A stretch of DNA of 32,731 bases. Source: Candidatus Moranbacteria bacterium CG23_combo_of_CG06-09_8_20_14_all_35_22 (GTDB lineage Bacteria; Patescibacteriota; Minisyncoccia; Moranbacterales; UBA2206). Below, in pieces: positions 130 to 32,587 of this stretch. How positions within the stretch are numbered: the first letter of the stretch is position 1; each line of letters starts with the position of its first letter. Made by a program: the position numbers and the translations under genes. Under the pieces are notes generated by a model. That model was not told where the DNA came from, did no database searches, and saw nothing but the letters and a program-made list of their open reading frames with translations. The stretch spans positions 1,802 through 34,532 of the forward strand of contig PCRW01000076.1 in assembly GCA_002772115.1 (NCBI GenBank). Reading direction: 5' to 3'.

Positions 130-468
130 TTATCCTAAAATCGCTTTGAGTCTCCTCACTTCTTCCGCCAACACTCCTTCATTTTCATACTCTCCATGAT
201 GGCGCGTGCCTTCTCCATAAGTTTCCTTTTTGGCATCTAAATGAATATTGATTGTCATATTCGCTCCATTTACCTTAACATACATATGAAATCGCGGATA
301 GCCCGAAGCTGAAAATGGACGCACAAAACTCATTTCCCCGCCTCGCGTCGACGAGCGATCGTCTCCGCGAGTCGAGGCGGGGTCGCTTTCTTGTCTTTGA
401 AAAAGATATCCCGCTCGACGAAGCAGATTAGCTGGGCTACTGGAAATGTTTTTAATTTCTAACTGCAT
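130..468 (-). CDS. Hypothetical protein with an in-frame 15-aa palindrome insertion
   Basis: 112-aa ORF; PASTRGDDRSSTRGG is encoded by the repeat at 337-381. Confidence 0.75.
   Translation of the reverse strand: MQLEIKNISSSPANLLRRAGYLFQRQESDPASTRGDDRSSTRGGEMSFVRPFSASGYPRFHMYVKVNGANMTINIHLDAKKETYGEGTRHHGEYENEGVLAEEVRRLKAILG
337..381. repeat. 45-bp GC-rich palindromic element (family A), copy 1
   Basis: CCCGCCTCG...CGAGGCGGG; near-identical copies at 30761-30805 and, inverted, at 21603-21647. Confidence 0.93.
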
Positions 469-5074: not shown

Positions 5075-6649
5075 TTATTCCACCCAATACTTCTTCTTCA
5101 TCAATTCTTCCTCCTCTTTCTTTTCTTCTTCGATTTTTTTCTTAGCCATCACGCGAAGATCGTTAAGATCTTTTTTATTTAAAGCTTTCGCCAAATTTAA
5201 TAAATCTTTTTTATTATTCAGTTTTTGATCATCAATCACCTCGGCTAGCATCACATCCAAGATTGCCCCAATTTTTGGTCCGGGTTGAAGTTTTAATTCT
5301 TTTATCAAATCATTGCCATTAATTTTGAGTTGCTTGACCGAAATTGCATCGTGCGAAACTTTTTCCACCATAAATTTGAAATGACGCAGTTTATATGGCA
5401 CGGCTTTTGCCACGCCTGACCCAAGTCGATCAGCAATTCGTACATCGATTAAATCATTGATATTTTCCACGCCAACTTTTTGCACCACTCGACGCACTCC
5501 CGATTCACCCACTTCATCCACATTGTAGTAGAACATATGATTTTTCACAAGCATCACAGTTTTCTCAATAACCTTCCTTGGATATTTCATCCGTTCTAAA
5601 ATTTTCTCCGCCATTTTTGCACCGACATATTCATGCGAATAGAAAGTTGCCATTTCCCCAGTTCCTCTTTTTGATTTCGGTTTTCCAATATCATGCAAAA
5701 ATGAGGCCAACCGCACTTCTAACTTGGATGACGGACATTTTTCTAAGCTAGCCAGAAGATGCGCATAAACCGTGTTGTATGGTCCAAAATAATGATGGCG
5801 ATTTTGCTTTATCCCAATTGCTTCAATTATCTCAGGAATAAATTCATCCATCAATTTACTTTCCACTAAAAGTTCCACCCCCCCACTTGGATCACTTGAA
5901 AGAATTATCTTATTGAATTCATCTCGAATTCTTTCTTGTGAAATAAATCGTAAATTTTTCGCATTCTTCTTGATCGCCAAAAAAGTTTTTTCTTCGATAG
6001 TCCAACTATTTTGAATTTGAGATTTTGAATTTGAAATTTGTTTGTTATTTGTTATTTGAGATTTGTTATTTCCGCTAAGCTGAACAGCGAAGCGGACTGC
6101 TCGCATCATCCGCAGTGCATCCTCATCAAATCTTTCATTTGCATCCCCTACTGCCCGAATTATTTTATTCTTAAGATCTTCTTGCCCCCCAAACAAATCA
6201 ATAATTTCATATTTGTCTTTTGTTTCATGTTTCATGTTGCATGCTACATGAATTGCCATCGCATTCACCGTAAAATCTCTTCTTGAAAGATCTTCTCCTA
6301 AAGTTTTAGCAAATTTCACCTCATCCGGATGACGCTTATCAGAATATTTTGATTCGATACGATATGTGGTAATTTCCACATTCGGCCCATCCCAATCTTT
6401 TTCTTCTACGCCCTCAATATATTTCAAAGGCAACATCACTGTCCCAAAATCATTCTCATATTTTCCGTCTGGAAAGATTTTCAAAATTTCCTCCGGCTTT
6501 CCATTTGTTGCAATGTCCCAATCCTTCGGTTCCTTTTCTAACATCAAATCCCGCACACATCCACCAACTATATACGCCTCAAAACCAGCCCATTCGAGCT
6601 TTCTAATAACTTCTATTATATATTGAGGGAATTCTATTTTTTTAGTCAT
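5075..6649 (-). CDS. cca: CCA tRNA nucleotidyltransferase with HD domain
   Basis: AYIVGGCVRD, KDWDIAT, DLSRRDFTVNAMA, RFDEDALRMMRAVRF and LHDIGKP; two low-complexity in-frame inserts. Confidence 0.9.
   Translation of the reverse strand: MTKKIEFPQYIIEVIRKLEWAGFEAYIVGGCVRDLMLEKEPKDWDIATNGKPEEILKIFPDGKYENDFGTVMLPLKYIEGVEEKDWDGPNVEITTYRIESKYSDKRHPDEVKFAKTLGEDLSRRDFTVNAMAIHVACNMKHETKDKYEIIDLFGGQEDLKNKIIRAVGDANERFDEDALRMMRAVRFAVQLSGNNKSQITNNKQISNSKSQIQNSWTIEEKTFLAIKKNAKNLRFISQERIRDEFNKIILSSDPSGGVELLVESKLMDEFIPEIIEAIGIKQNRHHYFGPYNTVYAHLLASLEKCPSSKLEVRLASFLHDIGKPKSKRGTGEMATFYSHEYVGAKMAEKILERMKYPRKVIEKTVMLVKNHMFYYNVDEVGESGVRRVVQKVGVENINDLIDVRIADRLGSGVAKAVPYKLRHFKFMVEKVSHDAISVKQLKINGNDLIKELKLQPGPKIGAILDVMLAEVIDDQKLNNKKDLLNLAKALNKKDLNDLRVMAKKKIEEEKKEEEELMKKKYWVE
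6009..6071. repeat. Degenerate heptamer repeat tract within cca
   Basis: TTTGAAT/TTTGTTA units encoding NNKSQITNNKQISNSKSQIQN. Confidence 0.8.
6221..6250. repeat. TGTTTCA heptamer tract within cca; a second tract lies at 5041-5071
   Basis: Encodes HVACNMKHET; the same unit recurs just downstream of the cca stop. Confidence 0.8.
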
Positions 6650-7241: not shown

Positions 7242-7985
7242 ATGATAAAAAACATTTTCAAAAAACAGCTGATTGGTCTTGGTTTTAGTGATCACGAGGC
7301 GGATATCTATCTAGTTCTACTAGAAAATGGACATTCCTCGACTGGACCAATTATCAAAAAAACTAATTTGCATCGAAATATCGTCTATGAGACGCTAAAT
7401 AAGTTAGTTAACAAGAAATTCGTTTCTGAATCTAATCAACGAGGCATAAAACACTACAAAGCACTAAATCCAGAAAAAATATTGCATCATAAAGAAGAAC
7501 AATTCAATCTTGCTCAAAATTTAATCCCCCAACTTAAGGATTTACAAACAAAAGAAAAAGTTGAAGTAGTTTTATATGAAGGTTTAAGCGGTTTTCAGAC
7601 AGCTCTTAAAAACGCAATTGATAGAATTACTCCCAATCAAAATATATTGGTTTTAGCAACTGGAGGAGAATTTTTTTACAAAAATATTGGCAATGCTCTT
7701 AAATATTACGACAAAAAAAGAAAAGAGAAAAAAATCAATATCAAAATGATTTATCAATCTTCCAAAAACGAAAGCCTGGCAAAAACTACACGCCTTAGAC
7801 CACTTATGGAAGTTAAATATATTGAATCTCCTTTTTTGCCAATTTCTGAAATTGAAATTATGGAAAATACAATTTTAATGCAAATTTATTCTGATCCTCC
7901 TGTGGTAATTGAAATATCCAGCAAAGAAGTCGCCGATAGTTACAGAAATCATTTTACTGATCTTTGGGAGAAAGCTGAAAAATAA
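7242..7985 (+). CDS. TrmB-family HTH transcriptional regulator
   Basis: GFSDHEADIYLVLL and VYETLNKLVNKKFV; C-terminal FTDLWEKA; TGCTATAAT ends 6 nt before the ATG. Confidence 0.85.
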   Translation: MIKNIFKKQLIGLGFSDHEADIYLVLLENGHSSTGPIIKKTNLHRNIVYETLNKLVNKKFVSESNQRGIKHYKALNPEKILHHKEEQFNLAQNLIPQLKDLQTKEKVEVVLYEGLSGFQTALKNAIDRITPNQNILVLATGGEFFYKNIGNALKYYDKKRKEKKINIKMIYQSSKNESLAKTTRLRPLMEVKYIESPFLPISEIEIMENTILMQIYSDPPVVIEISSKEVADSYRNHFTDLWEKAEK

Positions 7986-8001
7986 TTCCTTTTAAAATCA
8001 C

Positions 8002-8031
8002 AAAAAAAATCACTACGCAGTGATTTTTTTT
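8002..8031. terminator. Bidirectional intrinsic terminator
   Basis: AAAAAAAATCACT-ACGC-AGTGATTTTTTTT between convergent units. Confidence 0.7.
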
Positions 8032-8041
8032 ATTTGTTTTG

Positions 8042-8240
8042 TGTCCCCACCAAGAATCGAACTTGAATCTAGAGCTTCCGCCAAAGGCGGACAAGTAGGA
8101 GTCTCTGTTCCCCGCCTGCCATCGCCTGTGCCCTCGTCAAGAATCGAACTTGAATCTAGAGCTTAGGAGTCTCTTGTTCTATCCGTTGAACTACGAGGGC
8201 TCAGGCAAAGGCGGGCAGGTATCCATTGAACTATGAGGAC
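8042..8240 (-). pseudogene. Outer interrupted tRNA-Arg(CCU) copy
   Basis: GTCCTCA/TGGGGAC acceptor stem and an intact T arm; broken by a 109-nt insert in the D-loop (8111-8219) and an ~19-nt hairpin after the anticodon (~8077-8095). Confidence 0.85.
8129..8200 (-). tRNA. tRNA-Arg(CCU), intact, nested in the outer copy
   Basis: GCCCTCG/CGAGGGC acceptor, GTTC/GAAC D stem, CT-CCT-AA loop, TCAAG-TTCGATT-CTTGA T arm; 31-39 mismatch; no encoded CCA. Confidence 0.92.
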
Positions 8241-8245
8241 AATCG

Positions 8246-8872
8246 TTAGGTTAATTCTTTTTTAATAAATTTTATCATACTTATAATTAACTTGAATGAT
8301 TTTGTGCCGTTAGTGACTCTTACTCTGCACATACCATAAGGTAATTTTCCTTCTTTCTTTCCTTTTAGCACATTTACATTTACAATACTTTTTATGTTTA
8401 TTCTGCACACTTTTGCCCAATATTTTTTTGATTCATTGATATTTATACTATCATATATTCTTATTGAAACGCGCAAATCATCTTTATTAACACCAATCTC
8501 TTTTATGCAAGAAATGAATACGCGAATAAGATCTGGGTCACTATTAATAATATTCAAGTCTTTTTTTGTTCCCTCTCCCCAATAAATAGCCGCAAGAATT
8601 AAAAGTTTTTCTTTTTTTGAAATTTTTTTTAATAATTTTTTTGCATTATATTCAGATTCTTTCCATAATTTTTCGGCCCTAACAATACTACCTCCTTGCT
8701 TTCTTTTAAGAATATCCGCAAATTCAGGCAAAACAGCTACTTCTTTCGTATATCTCTGGATTGTAGATTTACCTCTTCCTAACACTGTGCAAATTTCAGA
8801 TATACTATGCCCTTTTTGACGAAGGTTTTTAATCTGATTAGCTTCTTTTTTTGTTATAATTTTTCCATTCAT
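8246..8872 (-). CDS. HTH plus LAGLIDADG-like endonuclease-fold protein
   Basis: N-terminal HTH (LRQKGHSISEI...GKSTIQRY); helix ILAAIYWGEG followed by NSDP; flanked by tRNA-Arg pieces. Confidence 0.7.
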   Translation of the reverse strand: MNGKIITKKEANQIKNLRQKGHSISEICTVLGRGKSTIQRYTKEVAVLPEFADILKRKQGGSIVRAEKLWKESEYNAKKLLKKISKKEKLLILAAIYWGEGTKKDLNIINSDPDLIRVFISCIKEIGVNKDDLRVSIRIYDSININESKKYWAKVCRINIKSIVNVNVLKGKKEGKLPYGMCRVRVTNGTKSFKLIISMIKFIKKELT

Positions 8873-9886: not shown

Positions 9887-11887
9887 ATGAGTAGTTTGAT
9901 TTCTAGATTTTGGAACAATTTCAAAACTCAACCAGATATGTGGTTCTTTTTTGGGTTTTTATTAACTTTTACGCTAAGTATTAGGAAAGTAATGTTATAC
10001 TTTCCAATCCAAGGAACTTTCAATGAATATTCCGGAGTGTTTATCTACCTTTCAGATGTTTTTCTAATTTTAACTCTAGTTTTCTGGTTTATATCTATAT
10101 TATGCAATGATTTTATTATTTTGTCAAGGTACAGGCTGTGGATAAGTAGTGCTTTCCACAAGTTACCCCCACACCAAAATTATAAATATAATCTCTATAA
10201 AATTAAGATTTATCTAAAAAATAGCCTCAAAATGAGAGCAAAGCGTATTTTTAATTTTTGGTGGAGGGGCATGTACATATTTTTACCTCTATTTTTAGTT
10301 TTTCTTTCTTTTTTATCAATTCTATGGTCGCAAAATCTGTCAATAGCCCTTTTCCGATCATTTAAGCTTTTGGAGTTTTATTTATTATATCTTTATATTA
10401 TTTTCAGATTTGTTTCAAAATTGTTCCACGCCCGCCTGCCAAAAAATTGTTCCGCGCCTATCTGCGACAATAATGTTCCACGCCCGCCTGCCGGCGAGGC
10501 AGGTGGAACATCCATCAATGAGAAGCAAGGATCAACCTCTAATTGTTCCACATGGAACAATTTTGGGCGGGTGGAACAATTTTGGGCGGGTGGAACAATT
10601 TGGTTATTTTTTAACATCATTATAATTTTAGGCTTATTTCAAGCCATAATCGGCATCATTCAATTTTTCCTACAAAAATCAATTGACCTATTTTGGCTTC
10701 GAGAAAGCCTAATTTCACCAGAAATCCTTGGGGTGGCTAAAGTAATCTTAAATGGAGAAAAATACATCCGCGCCTATGGCCTTATGACACATCCTAATGT
10801 TTTGGGTGGATTCTTACTATTTTCTATTGTTATCACATTATTATATAAAAAAATGTTCCATATGAAACATCAACTACCCCCCTCGCCTTTACAAGGAGAT
10901 GGGCAAGGGGTGAGGTTAAGCGATGTTCCACGTGGAACAATATCAGAAAAAAAGATATCTTCAATATCCAATTGTTCCACATGGAACAATTGGATATTTA
11001 GGCTTATTTTAGCCATTCAAATTTTAGCGCTAATCTTAACATTCTCAAAATCAGCCATAATTGGGCTCATTATCGCTCTTATATGCCTATCTGTGCCTGC
11101 CCGCCAAAAAAATGTTCCATGTGGAACACTATCAAAAGAAGAGTTTTATCCAAATTCAAATTGTTCCACGTGGAACAATTCTAAAATACACCTCACCCAA
11201 TCCCTCTCCTTATTAAGGAGAAAGTGGCTCAAGATGTTCCATGTGGAACATTTGAAATTAATAATCCTCTCGGTCTTAATTATTTTAGTATCCATATTTT
11301 TCATAATTAAACCCAATTTGAATTCTTTATTTTTTAATTCCCTAAATGAACGCCTATTTTATCTAAATGTTCCATATGGAACATTTGAGAGTGATCTAGT
11401 ATTGGGAATTGGCGCCGGACAATCAGTCCTAATGATGCAAAAATTTTACTCACAAACTTTAGAATTCTGGCAATATCAGCCTATTCATAATGTTTTTCTA
11501 CTAATATTTAGCGAGTTAGGCTTAATCGGTCTAGGGTTATTTATTTGGTGGTTGTGGAAATTGTTCCACGTGGAACAATTTGAAAATTCACCTCATCCTA
11601 ACCTTCTCCTTATTAAGGAGAAGGAACTTGCCCCCCTCTCCTTTATAAGGAGAGGGGCAGGGGGTGAGGTTAAAATTGTTCCACATGGAACAATAGAAAA
11701 TAACGACTACATATTACACAATAATAATATATATTTGTCAAGTATAATATTCTCTCGATATTTCCAAAGAATTCTTTTAGGTCTTATTTTTATCATGCTT
11801 TTTGACCATTATATCTGGGATATCCAACAGGGGAGCCTCCTATTCTGGCTAACCGCCGGCTTTGTTGCTGGAATAAGCAGGAAATAA
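9887..11887 (+). CDS. O-antigen ligase/Wzy_C-like membrane protein with many repeat-derived inserts
   Basis: RAYGLMTHPNVLGG, TFSKSA, GIGAG, PIHNVFLLIFSELGLIG and FDHY motifs; many transmembrane segments. Confidence 0.82.
   Translation: MSSLISRFWNNFKTQPDMWFFFGFLLTFTLSIRKVMLYFPIQGTFNEYSGVFIYLSDVFLILTLVFWFISILCNDFIILSRYRLWISSAFHKLPPHQNYKYNLYKIKIYLKNSLKMRAKRIFNFWWRGMYIFLPLFLVFLSFLSILWSQNLSIALFRSFKLLEFYLLYLYIIFRFVSKLFHARLPKNCSAPICDNNVPRPPAGEAGGTSINEKQGSTSNCSTWNNFGRVEQFWAGGTIWLFFNIIIILGLFQAIIGIIQFFLQKSIDLFWLRESLISPEILGVAKVILNGEKYIRAYGLMTHPNVLGGFLLFSIVITLLYKKMFHMKHQLPPSPLQGDGQGVRLSDVPRGTISEKKISSISNCSTWNNWIFRLILAIQILALILTFSKSAIIGLIIALICLSVPARQKNVPCGTLSKEEFYPNSNCSTWNNSKIHLTQSLSLLRRKWLKMFHVEHLKLIILSVLIILVSIFFIIKPNLNSLFFNSLNERLFYLNVPYGTFESDLVLGIGAGQSVLMMQKFYSQTLEFWQYQPIHNVFLLIFSELGLIGLGLFIWWLWKLFHVEQFENSPHPNLLLIKEKELAPLSFIRRGAGGEVKIVPHGTIENNDYILHNNNIYLSSIIFSRYFQRILLGLIFIMLFDHYIWDIQQGSLLFWLTAGFVAGISRK
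10137..10145 (-). promoter_or_regulatory. DnaA-box consensus (TTATCCACA) inside the CDS
   Basis: TGTGGATAA on the + strand, with degenerate boxes just downstream (~10152-10172). Confidence 0.4.
10422..11692. promoter_or_regulatory. Cluster of parS centromere-like sites
   Basis: TGTTCCAYRTGRAACA at 10544, 10854, 10924, 10973, 11113, 11162, 11235, 11368, 11562 and 11677; one split site at 10474-10510; several half sites. Confidence 0.88.
10877..11669. repeat. CCTCACCC...CCCTCTCC-GGAGAGGG hairpin repeats (family C)
   Basis: Copies at 10877-10915, 11191-11224 and an inverted doublet at 11591-11669; more in pcrA at 30370-30403 and 32286-32321. Confidence 0.87.
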
Positions 11888-30205: not shown

Positions 30206-32587
30206 TTATATTTTCTTGATTGGCGCAATTGAAGCGGAAAGTTTTTTAAGCCCTGATTTAGAAAATGCCACAGTGATAATATCGCCTTGACTCGCCACGA
30301 TTAATCCTTCGCCAAAAGTTTCGTGCGATACTCGATCACCATCGGTAAAAATAATTTTTACCTTATTTTCCCTCTCCTTTCCAAGGAGAGGGTTAGGGTG
30401 AGGTTTAGTGTTTCCGCTTTCTATTAGATGTTCTGGCACATCGTCCAGAAATCGACTTGGCGCATTAATTTGAGTGGAACCAAAAATATTTCTCATACGG
30501 GTAAAAAGCAGATAAACTTTTTCCATCGCCCGAGTCACTCCCACATACATCAGGCGCCTTTCTTCTTCCATTTCGCTGTCATCTAATATACTTCGGGAAT
30601 GGGGCAAAATTCCTTCTTCCAATCCTGCGATAAAAACAATTTTAAATTCTAAACCTTTCGCACTGTGTAGTGTCATAAGATGAACCGCATCTTTCGCTTG
30701 ATCAATATTATCCGTGTCAGAAACCAAAGCTACTTCTTCTAGAAATAATCTTAAACCCTCCCCGCCTCGCGTCGACGAGCGGTCATCTCCGCGAGTCAAG
30801 GCGGGATTACTTTCATACTCGCTATATTTTTTGGCGACCGTCAAAAGTTCGCGTACATTTTCATTTCTCATTTCTCCTTCTTCCGTTCCATCCATCAGAA
30901 ATTTTTCATATCCTGATTCGCTATAAACTTTTTGAATGAAATCCGTAAGAATCAATTTTTCTTTGAGCTCCGCCATTCGTTTTATAAATTCGCAAAATTT
31001 TACAATTGCATCTATTTTTGAATTTTGAATTTTATTTTTTGGAACCTGCCTGCCGGTAGGCAAGGTTTGATCATTAGAATTTGAAAATTCATTGGAAATT
31101 GATATTTGGAAATTGGAAATTGCGAGGCCACAAGATATTAAATCTAAATTATTACTCCTAGCTATATTAATCCATTTTCCCAAAGTAACATCCCCAACGC
31201 CTCGCTTTGGTTCATTAATTATTCTTTCCAATGAAGTTTCATCATTAAAATTATTAATTAAACGCAAATAGGCAACCACATCTTTGATTTCTTTTCTTTG
31301 ATAAAATTTCACTCCACCAATAATTCGGTAGGGAATAGAAGCACGAAGCATCGCTTCTTCAATCATCCGTGATTGTGCGTTGGTGCGATAAAGCACCACG
31401 AAATCAGAAAACTTATATCTGTCATTCCGGACTTGATCCGGAATCTCTTGAGATCCTGAAACCCGCCCGCCGGCGAGACAGGCAAGTCCAGAATGACATA
31501 TTTTTTTTATCTCATCTACAATAAACTGCGCTTCTTCTTTTTCATCTTCCGCTTCAAACCTCGTTATCAAATGTCCGCTCTGGTTTTGAGTCCAAATTTT
31601 TTTGTCTTTGCGATTGATATTTTTAGAAATCACGCCATAAGCCGCGTCCAAAATATTTTGCGTGGAACGATAATTTTGGATTAATTTAATAGTTTTAACC
31701 TCTGGATAATCTTTCTCAAAATTTAATATATTAGTTATATCCGCGCCTCTAAATTTATAGATACTTTGATCATCATCACCCACAACACATAGGTTTCTAG
31801 ATTTTTGTGACAATAATTTAATAAGAACATATTGCGCGCGGTTGGTATCTTGATATTCATCCACCATAATATAGCGAAAAAAATTCTGATATTTTTCTAA
31901 CACTTCCGGAAATTTCTGAAAAATTTTAACTGTGATCATCAAAATATCATCAAAATCCAAAGCATCTTGTTCTTTCAATTTTTTCTGGTAATTTATATAT
32001 ATTTTCGCCACCATTTCTTCAAAATATCCGCCCACTCCCGCCAAAAAATCTTCTGATCCAATTAGTTCATTTTTCGCTTTGGAAATTGCGCCTAAAATTG
32101 TCTTGGGCTTGAATTGATCAATGTTTATTTCCATTTCTTTCATCACTTTTTTTATCAGCGCCAGCTGATCCTGATCATCAAAAATATTAAAGGAACTTTT
32201 ATATCCAACTTTTTCAATTTCCCGCCTTAGAATTTTTACACAAATAGAATGAAAAGTCCCGACAGTCGGCATGTCGGGATGGCCACCCTCTCCTTTATAA
32301 GGAGAGGGGCTGGGGGTGAGGTCATTCGCATCATTCGCATCAATTCGCGTATTTGCATTAAGCAACTCTTTTATTCTTTCTTTCATCTCTCCCGCCGCTT
32401 TATTGGTAAAAGTCACTGCCAAAATCCTCCTTGGATTGATCTTTTTTTCGCAAATCAAATACGCCACTCGATGAGTGAGCGCCCGCGTTTTCCCTGACCC
32501 CGCACCCGCAATAATCAAAACCGGTCCTTCCGTCGTCATCACTGCCTCTCTCTGTGGAGCATTAAGTTTTTCCAAAATTTCCTGCAT
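30206..32587 (-). CDS. pcrA: PcrA/UvrD helicase with multiple repeat-derived inserts
   Basis: AGAGSGKT, TFTNKAA, VDEYQD, QNYRS, TLHSAKGLEF and EERRLMYVGVTRA. Confidence 0.95.
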   Translation of the reverse strand: MQEILEKLNAPQREAVMTTEGPVLIIAGAGSGKTRALTHRVAYLICEKKINPRRILAVTFTNKAAGEMKERIKELLNANTRIDANDANDLTPSPSPYKGEGGHPDMPTVGTFHSICVKILRREIEKVGYKSSFNIFDDQDQLALIKKVMKEMEINIDQFKPKTILGAISKAKNELIGSEDFLAGVGGYFEEMVAKIYINYQKKLKEQDALDFDDILMITVKIFQKFPEVLEKYQNFFRYIMVDEYQDTNRAQYVLIKLLSQKSRNLCVVGDDDQSIYKFRGADITNILNFEKDYPEVKTIKLIQNYRSTQNILDAAYGVISKNINRKDKKIWTQNQSGHLITRFEAEDEKEEAQFIVDEIKKICHSGLACLAGGRVSGSQEIPDQVRNDRYKFSDFVVLYRTNAQSRMIEEAMLRASIPYRIIGGVKFYQRKEIKDVVAYLRLINNFNDETSLERIINEPKRGVGDVTLGKWINIARSNNLDLISCGLAISNFQISISNEFSNSNDQTLPTGRQVPKNKIQNSKIDAIVKFCEFIKRMAELKEKLILTDFIQKVYSESGYEKFLMDGTEEGEMRNENVRELLTVAKKYSEYESNPALTRGDDRSSTRGGEGLRLFLEEVALVSDTDNIDQAKDAVHLMTLHSAKGLEFKIVFIAGLEEGILPHSRSILDDSEMEEERRLMYVGVTRAMEKVYLLFTRMRNIFGSTQINAPSRFLDDVPEHLIESGNTKPHPNPLLGKERENKVKIIFTDGDRVSHETFGEGLIVASQGDIITVAFSKSGLKKLSASIAPIKKI
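30761..30805. repeat. Family A palindrome within pcrA
   Basis: Three differences from 337-381; encodes PALTRGDDRSSTRGG. Confidence 0.93.
31420..31498. repeat. Family F element within pcrA with a nested 21-bp family D hairpin (31462-31482)
   Basis: TGTCATTCCGGACTTGATCCGGAATC...GATCCTGAAA[CCCGCCCGCCGGCGAGACAGG]CAAGTCCAGAATGACA. Confidence 0.85.

What the first reader, a model, noticed from the sequence alone, without database searches (positions are those of the whole stretch)
8042..8240. A tRNA inside a tRNA: intact tRNA-Arg(CCU) carried in a hairpin element within the D-loop of a second copy
Seen: the minus strand reads GTCCTCATAGTTCAATGGATA, then CCTGCCCGCCTTTGCCTGA, a complete tRNA-Arg, CAGGCGATGGCAGGCGGG, and then the rest of the outer tRNA. 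The two flanks are imperfect inverted repeats related to the CCCGCCTGCC hairpin family found in nearby CDSs. The outer and inner acceptor stems differ but both pair fully, so this is not a simple assembly duplication. Inference: a palindromic element targets tRNA genes and supplies a replacement tRNA, or the nested precursor is processed in an unusual way. I know of no described system with this layout.
Basis: partly seen in the sequence, partly recalled or inferred. Interest (0 to 1): 0.9.

Follow-up and report, generated by a model that had tools for sequence, protein, structure and literature searches.

The report
A tRNA gene inside its twin
A tiny groundwater bacterium has a complete arginine tRNA gene, framed by a GC-rich hairpin, sitting inside its original gene for the same tRNA; the same design recurs across this bacterial group and looks like an undescribed mobile element that replaces the gene it breaks.

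Summary
On the minus strand an outer tRNA-Arg(CCU) (8240-8220 and 8110-8042) is split in its D loop by a 19-nt arm, a complete tRNA-Arg(CCU) (8200-8129) and an 18-nt arm. Error-free contigs from four public runs cross both junctions.

Congeners G001, G002 and G008 hold one plain gene of the outer type. G005 and three genomes of another family hold the same arms with a tRNA at the same D-loop site. In a partial public scan, 29 of 140 arm pairs enclose an intact tRNA (13 anticodons, several Patescibacteria lineages). After removing the element in silico, 18 give an outer tRNA and 14 have the inner's anticodon. None of the 111 arm pairs without a tRNA does.

Inner and outer are 55-90% identical, so the inner is not a copy of the outer. 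Outers are often decayed.

Best reading (0.6): a non-autonomous palindromic element, REPIN/MITE-like, carries a tRNA, breaks the resident gene and replaces it. The moving enzyme and the way the tRNA is captured are unknown. Rejoining of the outer tRNA at RNA level is not excluded (about 0.1). Seven literature searches found no description.

The parts
8220..8240 (-). Outer (resident) tRNA-Arg(CCU), 5' part: acceptor 5' strand, D stem 5' strand and D loop up to A21
   Evidence: Read. With the 3' part it is closest to the plain gene of congener G001, 69 of 73. ARAGORN calls tRNA-Arg(cct) once both inserts are removed.
8201..8219 (-). Left arm of the palindromic element (CCTGCCCGCC + TTT + GCCTGA)
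   Evidence: Identical in G052 and G311, 1 difference in G312, 2 in G005. The GCCU block is conserved beyond the search pattern in 15-16 of 18 aligned nests.
8129..8200 (-). Inner tRNA-Arg(CCU), complete; the only intact tRNA-Arg(CCU) found in the assembly
   Evidence: ARAGORN, Rfam 63.5 bits. Acceptor stem GCCCTCG/CGAGGGC differs from the outer by compensated changes.
8111..8128 (-). Right arm of the palindromic element (CAGGC + GAT + GGCAGGCGGG)
   Evidence: Identical in G005, G052, G311, G312 and G063. 12 of 319 genomes of the order hold it at up to 1 mismatch; the reversed control finds 0.
8096..8110 (-). Outer tRNA, D stem 3' strand, anticodon stem 5' strand (one A missing) and anticodon loop up to A37
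   Evidence: comparison with the G001 gene.
8077..8095 (-). Second insert in the outer tRNA: 19-nt hairpin (TCCGCC-TTT-GGCGGA core) at position 37/38
   Evidence: 9 hairpins of this type in the genome. Like hairpins lie in the anticodon loops of outer tRNAs in G063 and G052:C86 and L112.
8042..8076 (-). Outer tRNA, rest of the 3' part: anticodon stem 3' strand, variable loop, T arm, acceptor 3' strand, A73
8002..8024 (-). A-tract, 5-6 bp hairpin and T run after the outer 3' end: likely the resident gene's terminator, serving the whole nest
   Evidence: Read. The same sequence (90% identity) follows the plain gene of G008. The simple scan did not call it because the stem has only 2 G-C pairs.

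Best explanation
The window holds the resident tRNA-Arg(CCU) gene of a small Patescibacteria-type bacterium. A 109-bp insert splits it between A21 and G22 of the D loop. The insert is two GC-rich inverted arms (19 and 18 nt) that frame a second, complete tRNA-Arg(CCU). It belongs to a family of non-autonomous palindromic elements, like REPINs or MITEs, with conserved arms and a free interior. These elements are spread through this bacterial group and often land in hairpin loops, above all the loops of tRNA genes. The hit destroys the resident (outer) gene. The passenger (inner) tRNA has no promoter or terminator of its own between the arms. It is transcribed from the resident gene's signals, is cut out by the ordinary tRNA end-processing enzymes, and takes over. 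Only hits in which the passenger has the same anticodon as the broken gene leave a viable cell, which explains the same-anticodon rule. The outer halves then decay: here by three C-to-T changes, one deletion and a further hairpin insert. SHOWN: the layout; plain versus filled sites among relatives; near-identical cassettes in two families; the same-anticodon rule; divergence of inner from outer; decay of outers. INFERRED: movement at DNA level, the enzyme, expression from the outer promoter, and loss of outer function.
For: Anatomy and fold. Independent contigs.

Plain sites: congeners G001, G002 and G008 have one uninterrupted gene of the outer type. G001 shares the upstream flank (90%) and G008 the downstream terminator (90%). 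The outer is 69/73 to the G001 gene; the inner is 65/73.

Filled sites with the same arms at GGATA|GAAC: G005 (same genus) and G052, G311, G312 (another family). The G052 cassette is 94% identical over 126 nt.

Right arm: in 12 of 319 genomes of the order, reversed control 0. By eye, 11 of the 24 places lie in tRNAs or tRNA fragments.

Census: 140 distinct arm pairs; 29 hold an intact tRNA; 18 of these give a junction-spanning outer tRNA after in-silico removal, 14 with the same anticodon; 0 of 111 pairs without a tRNA do. There are 13 anticodons. Insert sites are the D loop, the anticodon loop or the T loop.

Inner versus own outer: 55-90% identity in 14 nests. The Thr(CGT) passengers in L072 and in L030 (G052) have the same letters in different outers (read; one search gives 100% as the top inner-inner value).

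Decayed outers: G000; G005, whose halves no longer pair; G052 and G312, with scrambled anticodon arms; G311; L056; L112.

No sole-copy tRNA with a palindrome emerged in G000: 329 GC islands, 47,542 removal variants, 3 artefactual calls only.

The same arms frame AT-rich interiors at non-tRNA sites. A second nest (Ile) in this genome shows the same logic: the outer is the genus-native type and the inner is identical to G005's plain gene.
Against: No enzyme is tied to the arms. The 7 Y1-transposase homologues of G000 have no such palindromes within 400 nt. That family is in 5 of 5 nest genomes but also in 4 of 5 nest-free congeners. GIY-YIG or Y1 genes lie in 2 of 29 nest loci against 4 of 115 other loci.

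There is no target-site duplication and no shared target sequence.

All 29 tRNA-bearing elements lie in tRNA-like flanks. A freely transposing element should also leave copies at neutral non-tRNA sites.

About half of the outers (14 of 29) are still intact, so either the hits are very recent or something preserves them.

G052 and G312 keep perfect acceptor and T arms in an outer whose anticodon arm is scrambled.

How a whole tRNA comes to lie exactly between the arms, for 13 anticodons and in both arm orientations, is unexplained.

There are no RNA data of any kind.

Confidence: 0.6

Rival explanations
1. Homing rather than transposition. A nest allele, once formed, spreads between lineages by homologous recombination through the flanking outer-tRNA halves. 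This would resemble intron homing with co-conversion of exons. A trans-acting nuclease that cuts uninterrupted tRNA genes may stimulate it. The arms would then be a passenger structure, not transposon ends. The outer is dead in this reading too.
For: The site is constant for a given passenger: GGATA|GAAC in the Arg(CCU) nests of G000, G005, G052, G311, G312, L104 and L074, and TAGA|GC in six Thr(CGT) nests. In G005 the outer 3' part is a near copy of the inner 3' part, acceptor strand included. In G000 the centre of the inner equals the genus-native gene while its acceptor stem does not. G004 has a chimeric tRNA-Ile with two acceptor mismatches. Four of the five small GIY-YIG ORFs of G000 lie next to tRNA genes, one between an intact tRNA-Gln and a 3' tRNA-Gln fragment. 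This reading explains why tRNA-bearing elements are never seen outside cognate tRNA genes.
Against: No nuclease gene travels with the nests: 2 of 29 loci against 4 of 115. The homology arms are short (21 and about 50 nt). Arg(CCU) is nested at 37/38 in L126, and Thr(CGT) in the anticodon loop in L109 and L146. The arms occur in two flips at the same site (L074 versus L104). It does not explain how each nest first formed.
Confidence: 0.2
2. Intron-like, two tRNAs from one gene. The precursor folds with the arm helix bringing the outer halves together. The inner tRNA is released, the arms are removed and the outer halves are ligated, or they work as a two-piece tRNA held by the helix. Both tRNAs would then mature.
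For: 14 of 29 outers are intact apart from the insert. The arm helix, outer acceptor stem and inner cloverleaf all form in the predicted fold. Arm sequence is conserved beyond what pairing alone needs. An RtcB ligase gene is present.
Against: If the outer were restored, any passenger could sit in any tRNA gene; yet inner and outer share the anticodon wherever both are read, 14 of 14 clean calls. Outers lose their anticodon arm or take further hairpins in G000, G052, G312, G311, L056 and L112. There is no bulge-helix-bulge at the junctions and no splicing endonuclease match in a 94%-complete genome. From textbook knowledge, RNase P and RNase Z leave 3'-OH and 5'-phosphate ends, which RtcB does not join. 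Several nests split the anticodon itself. No sole-copy tRNA with a palindrome was found in G000.
Confidence: 0.1
3. Chance product of local duplication and decay: tandem copies of the gene, two of them truncated, with hairpins added later.
For: tRNA loci of this genus are rearrangement-prone, with fragments and chimeras on C20 and C56 and in G004 and G006.
Against: The two outer pieces complement each other to the base, 1-21 plus 22-73, here and in 18 other nests. The inner is 55-90% identical to its outer, with compensated acceptor changes, so it is not a recent local copy. The same arms recur in different families.
Confidence: 0.03
4. Assembly artefact of a metagenome bin.
For: Contigs of the public runs break inside the inner tRNA, and no single piece spans all 601 bases laid.
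Against: Error-free pieces cross each junction in four runs. The same layout is present in many independent assemblies.
Confidence: 0.01

Closest known systems
REP / REPIN elements mobilised by RAYT (Y1, IS200-like) transposases
   Same: Short GC-rich imperfect palindromes with conserved arms and a free spacer. They are non-coding, multi-copy and form hairpins as single strands. Y1-transposase homologues are present: 7 in a 0.9-Mb genome.
   Different: REPs are extragenic; these lie in tRNA genes and in reading frames. No Y1 gene is flanked by the palindromes. No REPIN is known to carry a tRNA or to nest in a cognate gene.
Rickettsia palindromic elements (RPE) and bacterial MITEs (recalled)
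   Same: Palindromic, non-autonomous inserts in a small AT-rich genome. They are tolerated inside protein-coding genes: here inside the pcrA-like frame and the frame 9887-11887.
   Different: No target-site duplication. The interior is not conserved between copies. There is a tRNA passenger and a strong link with tRNA loops.
Integrase-borne islands, phages and plasmids that integrate into tRNA genes and restore the gene with their own copy of its 3' part. The archaeal case is Sugahara et al. 2012, PMC3293823 (abstract and outline read).
   Same: A mobile element lands in a tRNA gene, brings tRNA sequence that keeps the function, and leaves a fragment of the old gene behind.
   Different: Those elements are kilobases long, encode a recombinase and duplicate only part of the tRNA. 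Here 109 bp without any gene carry a whole tRNA and leave both halves of the old gene around it.
Archaeal tRNA introns and split tRNAs (bulge-helix-bulge, EndA, RtcB), including introns at non-canonical sites and introns that hold a small RNA (recalled; review titles seen in the listing)
   Same: Inserts in D and anticodon loops of tRNA genes. One insert here (8095-8077) lies at the canonical 37/38 site. A functional RNA lies within the insert.
   Different: No bulge-helix-bulge, no EndA match, a bacterial host, and decaying outers.
Group I introns in bacterial tRNA anticodon loops
   Same: Mobile inserts in bacterial tRNA genes. This genome has a tRNA-Phe with a 250-nt insert.
   Different: The element is 109 nt with no ribozyme core. 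Rfam at gathering level finds only tRNAs in the window.

Membership tests
REP/REPIN-RAYT | Short imperfect palindromes, many copies per genome | tested here: met
   Arm motifs GGCAGGCGGG and its complement occur 6 and 7 times in G000. A second 45-nt palindrome family has 46 and 42 arm motifs. 191 GC islands were found.
REP/REPIN-RAYT | Extragenic location | tested here: not met
   Copies lie inside tRNA genes and inside open frames, for example window 10475-10506 and 30755-30782.
REP/REPIN-RAYT | A RAYT gene flanked by its own REPs | tested here: not met
   7 Y1_Tnp matches. None has an A, B or C type palindrome within 400 nt.
REP/REPIN-RAYT | Cleavage and binding of the palindrome by the transposase | not testable with these tools
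   Needs biochemistry.
MITE | Terminal inverted repeats, no coding capacity, multiple copies | tested here: met
   Arms of 19 and 18 nt. No ORF fits in 109 bp. Copies occur in 12 of 319 genomes of the order.
MITE | Target-site duplication | tested here: not met
   The outer halves abut without repeat or loss at GGATA|GAAC. No repeat was seen in the flanks of 29 nests.
MITE | Interior related to an autonomous parent element | tested here: not met
   Interiors are unrelated to each other. 15 arm pairs 125-4000 nt apart gave no convincing parent.
Archaeal-type spliced tRNA intron | Bulge-helix-bulge at the exon-intron junctions | tested here: not met
   The arm helix is continuous up to the D stem, with no 3-4-3 motif.
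Archaeal-type spliced tRNA intron | Splicing endonuclease EndA in the genome | tested here: not met
   PF01974 has 0 matches in G000 (94% complete); the control finds it in 4 archaea.
Archaeal-type spliced tRNA intron | RtcB-type ligase in the genome | tested here: met
   PF01139 has one match, 161 bits. It is common in bacteria, so this is weak.
Archaeal-type spliced tRNA intron | Mature RNA lacks the insert | not testable with these tools
   No RNA run holds the stretch.
Group I intron | Ribozyme core (P3-P8), usually over 200 nt | tested here: not met
   109 nt. Rfam gathering search of the window gives tRNA only.
Integrase-mediated tRNA-gene island | Recombinase gene in the insert, and a direct repeat of the tRNA 3' part at the far end | tested here: not met
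   The insert has no gene. The neighbours are an HTH protein and a TrmB-like regulator, and the former is also present next to the plain gene of G001. The layout is split, not a 3' repeat.
tRNA (inner copy) | Cloverleaf with covariation, score above the Rfam cut-off | tested here: met
   63.5 bits against a cut-off of 29. 19 of 34 consensus pairs show compensated changes across 18 nests.

The most novel reading that the evidence does not exclude
The nest is a new kind of bacterial tRNA intron whose intron is itself a tRNA. The conserved arm helix holds the outer halves together. Release of the inner tRNA by the normal end-processing enzymes cuts the outer precursor, and the halves are then trimmed and ligated, or act as a two-piece tRNA. 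One promoter would then yield two isodecoders. A companion possibility is that the passenger tRNA itself guides the element to its cognate gene by homology.
Probability: 0.12. Interest if true: 0.95.

Novelty: new variant of a known kind. Interest (0 to 1): 0.82.

Why it matters
tRNA genes are among the most conserved and least disturbed genes in bacteria, and their only known inserts are group I introns and large integrase-borne islands. Here a roughly 110-bp gene-less element breaks a tRNA gene and carries the spare part with it. The design recurs for at least 13 anticodons in many Patescibacteria lineages.

If the reading holds, it is a minimal self-compensating parasite of essential RNA genes. 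It would be a route by which tRNA alleles move between distant lineages. It would also cause systematic tRNA mis-annotation in these genomes, through outer halves, fragments and missing tRNAs.

It also gives a testable bacterial parallel to the debate on how archaeal split and intron-bearing tRNA genes arose.

If the outer copy is in fact rejoined, it would be a new RNA-splicing route in bacteria.

Tried and rejected
RNA evidence: no RNA holder was listed for the stretch, so nothing can be said on expression or processing.

No earlier notes were seen.

Viral contigs: 10 arm-pair matches, all in GC-rich contigs, 0 with a tRNA. No sign that phages carry nests in that collection.

Enzyme link. 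Y1_Tnp is in 5 of 5 nest genomes and in 4 of 5 nest-free congeners. No palindromes lie next to the Y1 genes of G000. GIY-YIG or Y1 ORFs occur in 2 of 29 nest loci against 4 of 115 others. None of this discriminates.

Autonomous parent: 15 arm pairs 125-4000 nt apart in AT-rich loci and in G000 gave nothing convincing.

Hidden spliced tRNAs in G000: removal of each of 329 GC islands at 169 offsets gave only three artefactual calls. The missing tRNAs (His, Asn, Pro and others) are therefore more likely unassembled or masked than interrupted.

The promoter and terminator scan called nothing at 7900-8450. The terminator in the parts list is read by eye and by conservation.

The outers of the two other nests of G000 (C66 Ile, C39 Arg-GCG) were not cleanly rebuilt by ARAGORN over 14,161 and 6,468 offset variants. 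I describe them by eye only. I first read the C39 outer as His(GTG). The anticodon depends on where the palindrome ends are drawn (GTG or GCG). A73 and the GGATA D loop fit Arg.

Flank pairing: own flanks of 62 elements pair slightly better than re-paired flanks (-5.09 against -4.31, sd 0.28; 0 of 200 re-pairings reach it). The set includes the tRNA nests, so this is only modest support for a hairpin-loop preference.

The joints that skip 147-161 bases carry other letters between the sides. They come from other organisms' plain tRNA-Arg genes at 85% likeness and are no evidence for an empty site in the same strain.

Rows left out. The consensus fold used 18 of the 29 nests. The 7 with flipped arms and 4 with atypical arm lengths (L049, L090, L118, L126) were dropped before the call. 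Titles of loci above L116 were not shown, so their taxa are unknown. Supplementary files of papers were closed and not consulted. Of PMC3293823 only the abstract and outline were read. All other papers were seen as search listings only.

The protein searches, structure prediction, complex prediction and atlas tools were not used, because no protein is part of the element.

Full report
WHAT IS THERE. On the minus strand the window reads, 5' to 3':
- 21 nt of a tRNA, from the acceptor strand to the D loop (8240-8220);
- a 19-nt GC-rich arm (8219-8201);
- a complete tRNA-Arg(CCU) (8200-8129; ARAGORN, Rfam 63.5 bits);
- an 18-nt arm that pairs with the first (8128-8111);
- the rest of the first tRNA (8110-8042);
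- an A-tract, hairpin and T-run (8024-8002).

Two things were missed. The outer copy has a second insert, a 19-nt hairpin between nt 37 and 38 of its anticodon loop (8095-8077). It also lacks one A at 26/27. With both inserts deleted inside a script, ARAGORN calls a 71-nt tRNA-Arg(cct).

The 199-nt stretch folds at -84 kcal/mol (z -5.0). The outer acceptor stem, the arm helix and the inner acceptor stem all form.

Error-free contigs of four public groundwater runs cross each junction: X6 at 7850-8183 and 8165-8450, with similar pieces in X7, X1 and X9. No single piece spans everything, and the best holders may be the source samples.

THE HOST. The window is C43:1802-34532 of a 905,852-base, 82-contig, 34.6% GC assembly with a tmRNA. 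Record titles of related hits name Patescibacteria lineages. ARAGORN finds 26 tRNAs and Rfam finds 25 over its cut-off. The inner gene is the only intact tRNA-Arg(CCU).

The genome is studded with GC-rich palindromes, 191 islands. Three families stand out:
- a 45-nt family, with 46 and 42 arm motifs;
- the family of the arms, with 6 and 7 motifs;
- a TCCGCC...GGCGGA family, with 9 copies.

Some of these lie inside open reading frames.

PLAIN AND FILLED SITES. The region was searched in 61 related genomes.
- Congeners G001, G002 and G008 hold one uninterrupted tRNA-Arg(CCU). G001 shares the upstream flank (90%) and G008 the downstream hairpin and T-run (90%).
- The outer copy of the window is closest to these plain genes: 69/73 to G001. 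It differs by three C-to-T changes, the deletion and the hairpin.
- The inner is 65/73 to G001 and has another acceptor stem with compensated changes.
- G005 (same genus) and G052, G311 and G312 (another family) carry the same arms with a tRNA-Arg(CCU) at the same GGATA|GAAC site. The G052 cassette is 94% identical over 126 nt and its arms are identical.
- In G005 the outer 3' part is a near copy of the inner 3' part, so the outer halves no longer pair.
- In G052 and G312 the outer anticodon arm is scrambled. In G311 the T loop has a further palindrome.

So the resident gene was hit by an insert, and the outer copy decays.

A FAMILY. The right arm occurs at up to 1 mismatch in 12 of 319 genomes of the order, and the reversed control finds none. 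By eye, 11 of the 24 places lie in tRNAs or tRNA fragments: nests, D loops and T loops. The rest are short empty palindromes of 33-45 nt in frames or spacers.

Many of these are chance hits in GC-rich genomes.

Pooling all loci gives 140 distinct arm pairs:
- 29 enclose an intact tRNA;
- after in-silico removal, 18 of these 29 give a tRNA that spans the junction;
- 14 of those have the inner's anticodon, and the other 4 give odd calls from decayed outers, G000 among them;
- none of the 111 pairs without a tRNA gives an outer tRNA.

The remaining 11 nests lie at contig ends or in flanks that read as decayed D or anticodon loops.

Thirteen anticodons occur: Thr CGU and GGU; Arg CCU, CCG, UCG and UCU; Cys; Trp; Val UAC and CAC; Gly CCC and UCC; and Pro GGG. 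Inserts sit in the D loop (nt 20-23), the anticodon loop (31-39) or the T loop (60). Inner and outer always point the same way. The arms occur in two flips.

Record titles name Saccharibacteria, Uhrbacteria, Kerfeldbacteria, Paceibacterota, Moraniibacteriota, Shapirobacteria, Doudnabacteria and Parcubacteria MAGs. One record is labelled Gammaproteobacteria.

A consensus fold of 18 of the 29 nests shows the arm helix around a cloverleaf. 19 of 34 pairs have compensated changes. The GCCU/AGGC blocks next to the tRNA are conserved although they were not part of the search pattern.

The same arms also frame AT-rich, unrelated interiors at non-tRNA sites.

WHAT THE INNER IS NOT. In the 14 clean nests the inner is 55-90% identical to its own outer, so it is not a copy made on the spot. 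Two Thr(CGU) passengers, in L072 and in L030 (G052), have the same letters inside different outers (read).

The second nest of this genome (C66, tRNA-Ile, with different AT-rich arms) follows the same logic. The outer is the type found as the plain gene in G001, G003, G006, G007 and G008. The inner is identical to G005's plain gene.

HOW IT MOST LIKELY WORKS. A gene-less palindromic element with a tRNA in its apex lands in a loop of the resident gene for the same tRNA. The resident gene is broken. The passenger has no signals of its own between the arms, so it is expressed from the resident promoter and terminator and replaces the broken gene.

The same-anticodon rule is best explained by survival. 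In genomes with single-copy tRNA genes, any other hit is lethal.

The rule also argues against rejoining of the outer RNA. If the outer were restored, any passenger could sit in any tRNA gene. Other points agree with this:
- no bulge-helix-bulge motif and no EndA;
- no sole-copy tRNA with a palindrome in G000;
- decay of outers in several lineages.

RtcB is present. However, the ends left by RNase P and RNase Z would not suit it (textbook knowledge).

WHAT IS NOT EXPLAINED.
- The enzyme. Y1-transposase homologues are numerous, 7 in G000. They are not linked to the palindromes and do not discriminate nest genomes from nest-free ones.
- There is no target duplication and no target sequence.
- tRNA-bearing elements are never seen outside tRNA genes. 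This fits homing through the outer halves better than free transposition. It is also supported by constant sites per passenger and by chimeric copies. I therefore keep homing as the main rival for the mode of spread.
- How a tRNA is captured exactly between the arms is open.

KNOWN RELATIVES. The element works like a REPIN or MITE with a passenger. Its effect is like that of integrase-borne islands that restore the tRNA gene they enter. It fails defining features of each of these families (see the membership table).

Seven full-text searches found no description of nested tRNA genes or of these palindromes in this bacterial group. The nearest paper is PMC3293823, of which I read the abstract and outline. 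It describes an archaeal tRNA gene disrupted by a 1.8-kb recombinase-bearing element.

VERDICT. It is a new variant of a known kind (a palindromic non-autonomous element) with a new logic, a self-compensating hit on an essential RNA gene. Interest is high. The mechanism is only partly settled, and there are no RNA data.

Noticed in passing
G000 contig C66:253-500 (+), locus L167/L171: Second nest. An intact tRNA-Ile(GAU) with 16-bp AT-rich inverted arms lies inside a decayed tRNA-Ile(GAU). That outer copy also has a 45-nt palindrome in its D loop. The outer is the genus-native type; the inner is identical to G005's plain gene. No congener has this nest.
   Followed up: partly
G000 contig C39:3720-3916 (-), locus L168: An intact tRNA-Arg(GCG) lies inside the variable-loop region of another Arg-like tRNA that carries a 45-nt palindrome in its anticodon. 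There are no arms, only an ATTC direct repeat. The outer anticodon reads GCG or GUG depending on where the palindrome ends are drawn.
   Followed up: partly
G000 contigs C20:79-620 and C56:11380-11771 (loci L169, L170); also C48 and C65: Four of five small GIY-YIG nuclease ORFs lie within about 50 nt of tRNA genes. On C56 the ORF sits between an intact tRNA-Gln and a 3' tRNA-Gln fragment. On C20 an intact tRNA-Leu(UAG) is flanked by two tRNA-Leu pseudo-copies with hairpins. These look like nuclease-driven tRNA gene replacement.
   Followed up: partly
window 336-386, 10475-10506, 30755-30782, 31455-31484: GC-rich palindromes of the 45-nt and 21-nt families lie inside open frames. These include the pcrA-like gene (30206-32587) and the frame 9887-11887, which also repeats ATTGTTCCACGCCCGCCTGCC. 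The inserts appear to be translated, as in Rickettsia palindromic elements.
   Followed up: no
G000 contig C20:2415-2739: ARAGORN in intron mode calls a tRNA-Phe(GAA) with a 250-nt insert in the anticodon loop, possibly a group I intron. It was not scanned with Rfam.
   Followed up: no
G000 whole genome: Only 26 tRNAs are found. None is found for His, Asn or Pro, nor Ser(UGA/GCU), Gly(UCC), Ala(UGC) or Arg(UCU). A tRNA-Tyr on C30 runs into a masked N stretch. There are seven Y1-transposase homologues of 190-237 aa in 0.9 Mb.
   Followed up: partly
L173 (G004:C18) and L176 (G006:C69): G004's tRNA-Ile has a 5' acceptor strand of the inner type and a 3' strand of the native type, giving two mismatches: a recombinant. 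G006 has a tRNA-Ile 5' fragment fused to the body of tRNA-Ala(UGC).
   Followed up: no
window 5075-6649 (-): The CCA-adding enzyme matches its family in two stretches, with extra residues between them (13-275 against profile positions 11-229). This is possibly another in-frame insert.
   Followed up: no
L051, L114, L153 (public MAG contigs): Arm-family elements sit at the centre of another repeated palindrome (TTCGA...TATTCGAA flanks). Elements also nest in the apex of other elements (L025, L034, L036; G000 C76:5045-5098). This suggests a preference for hairpin tips.
   Followed up: partly
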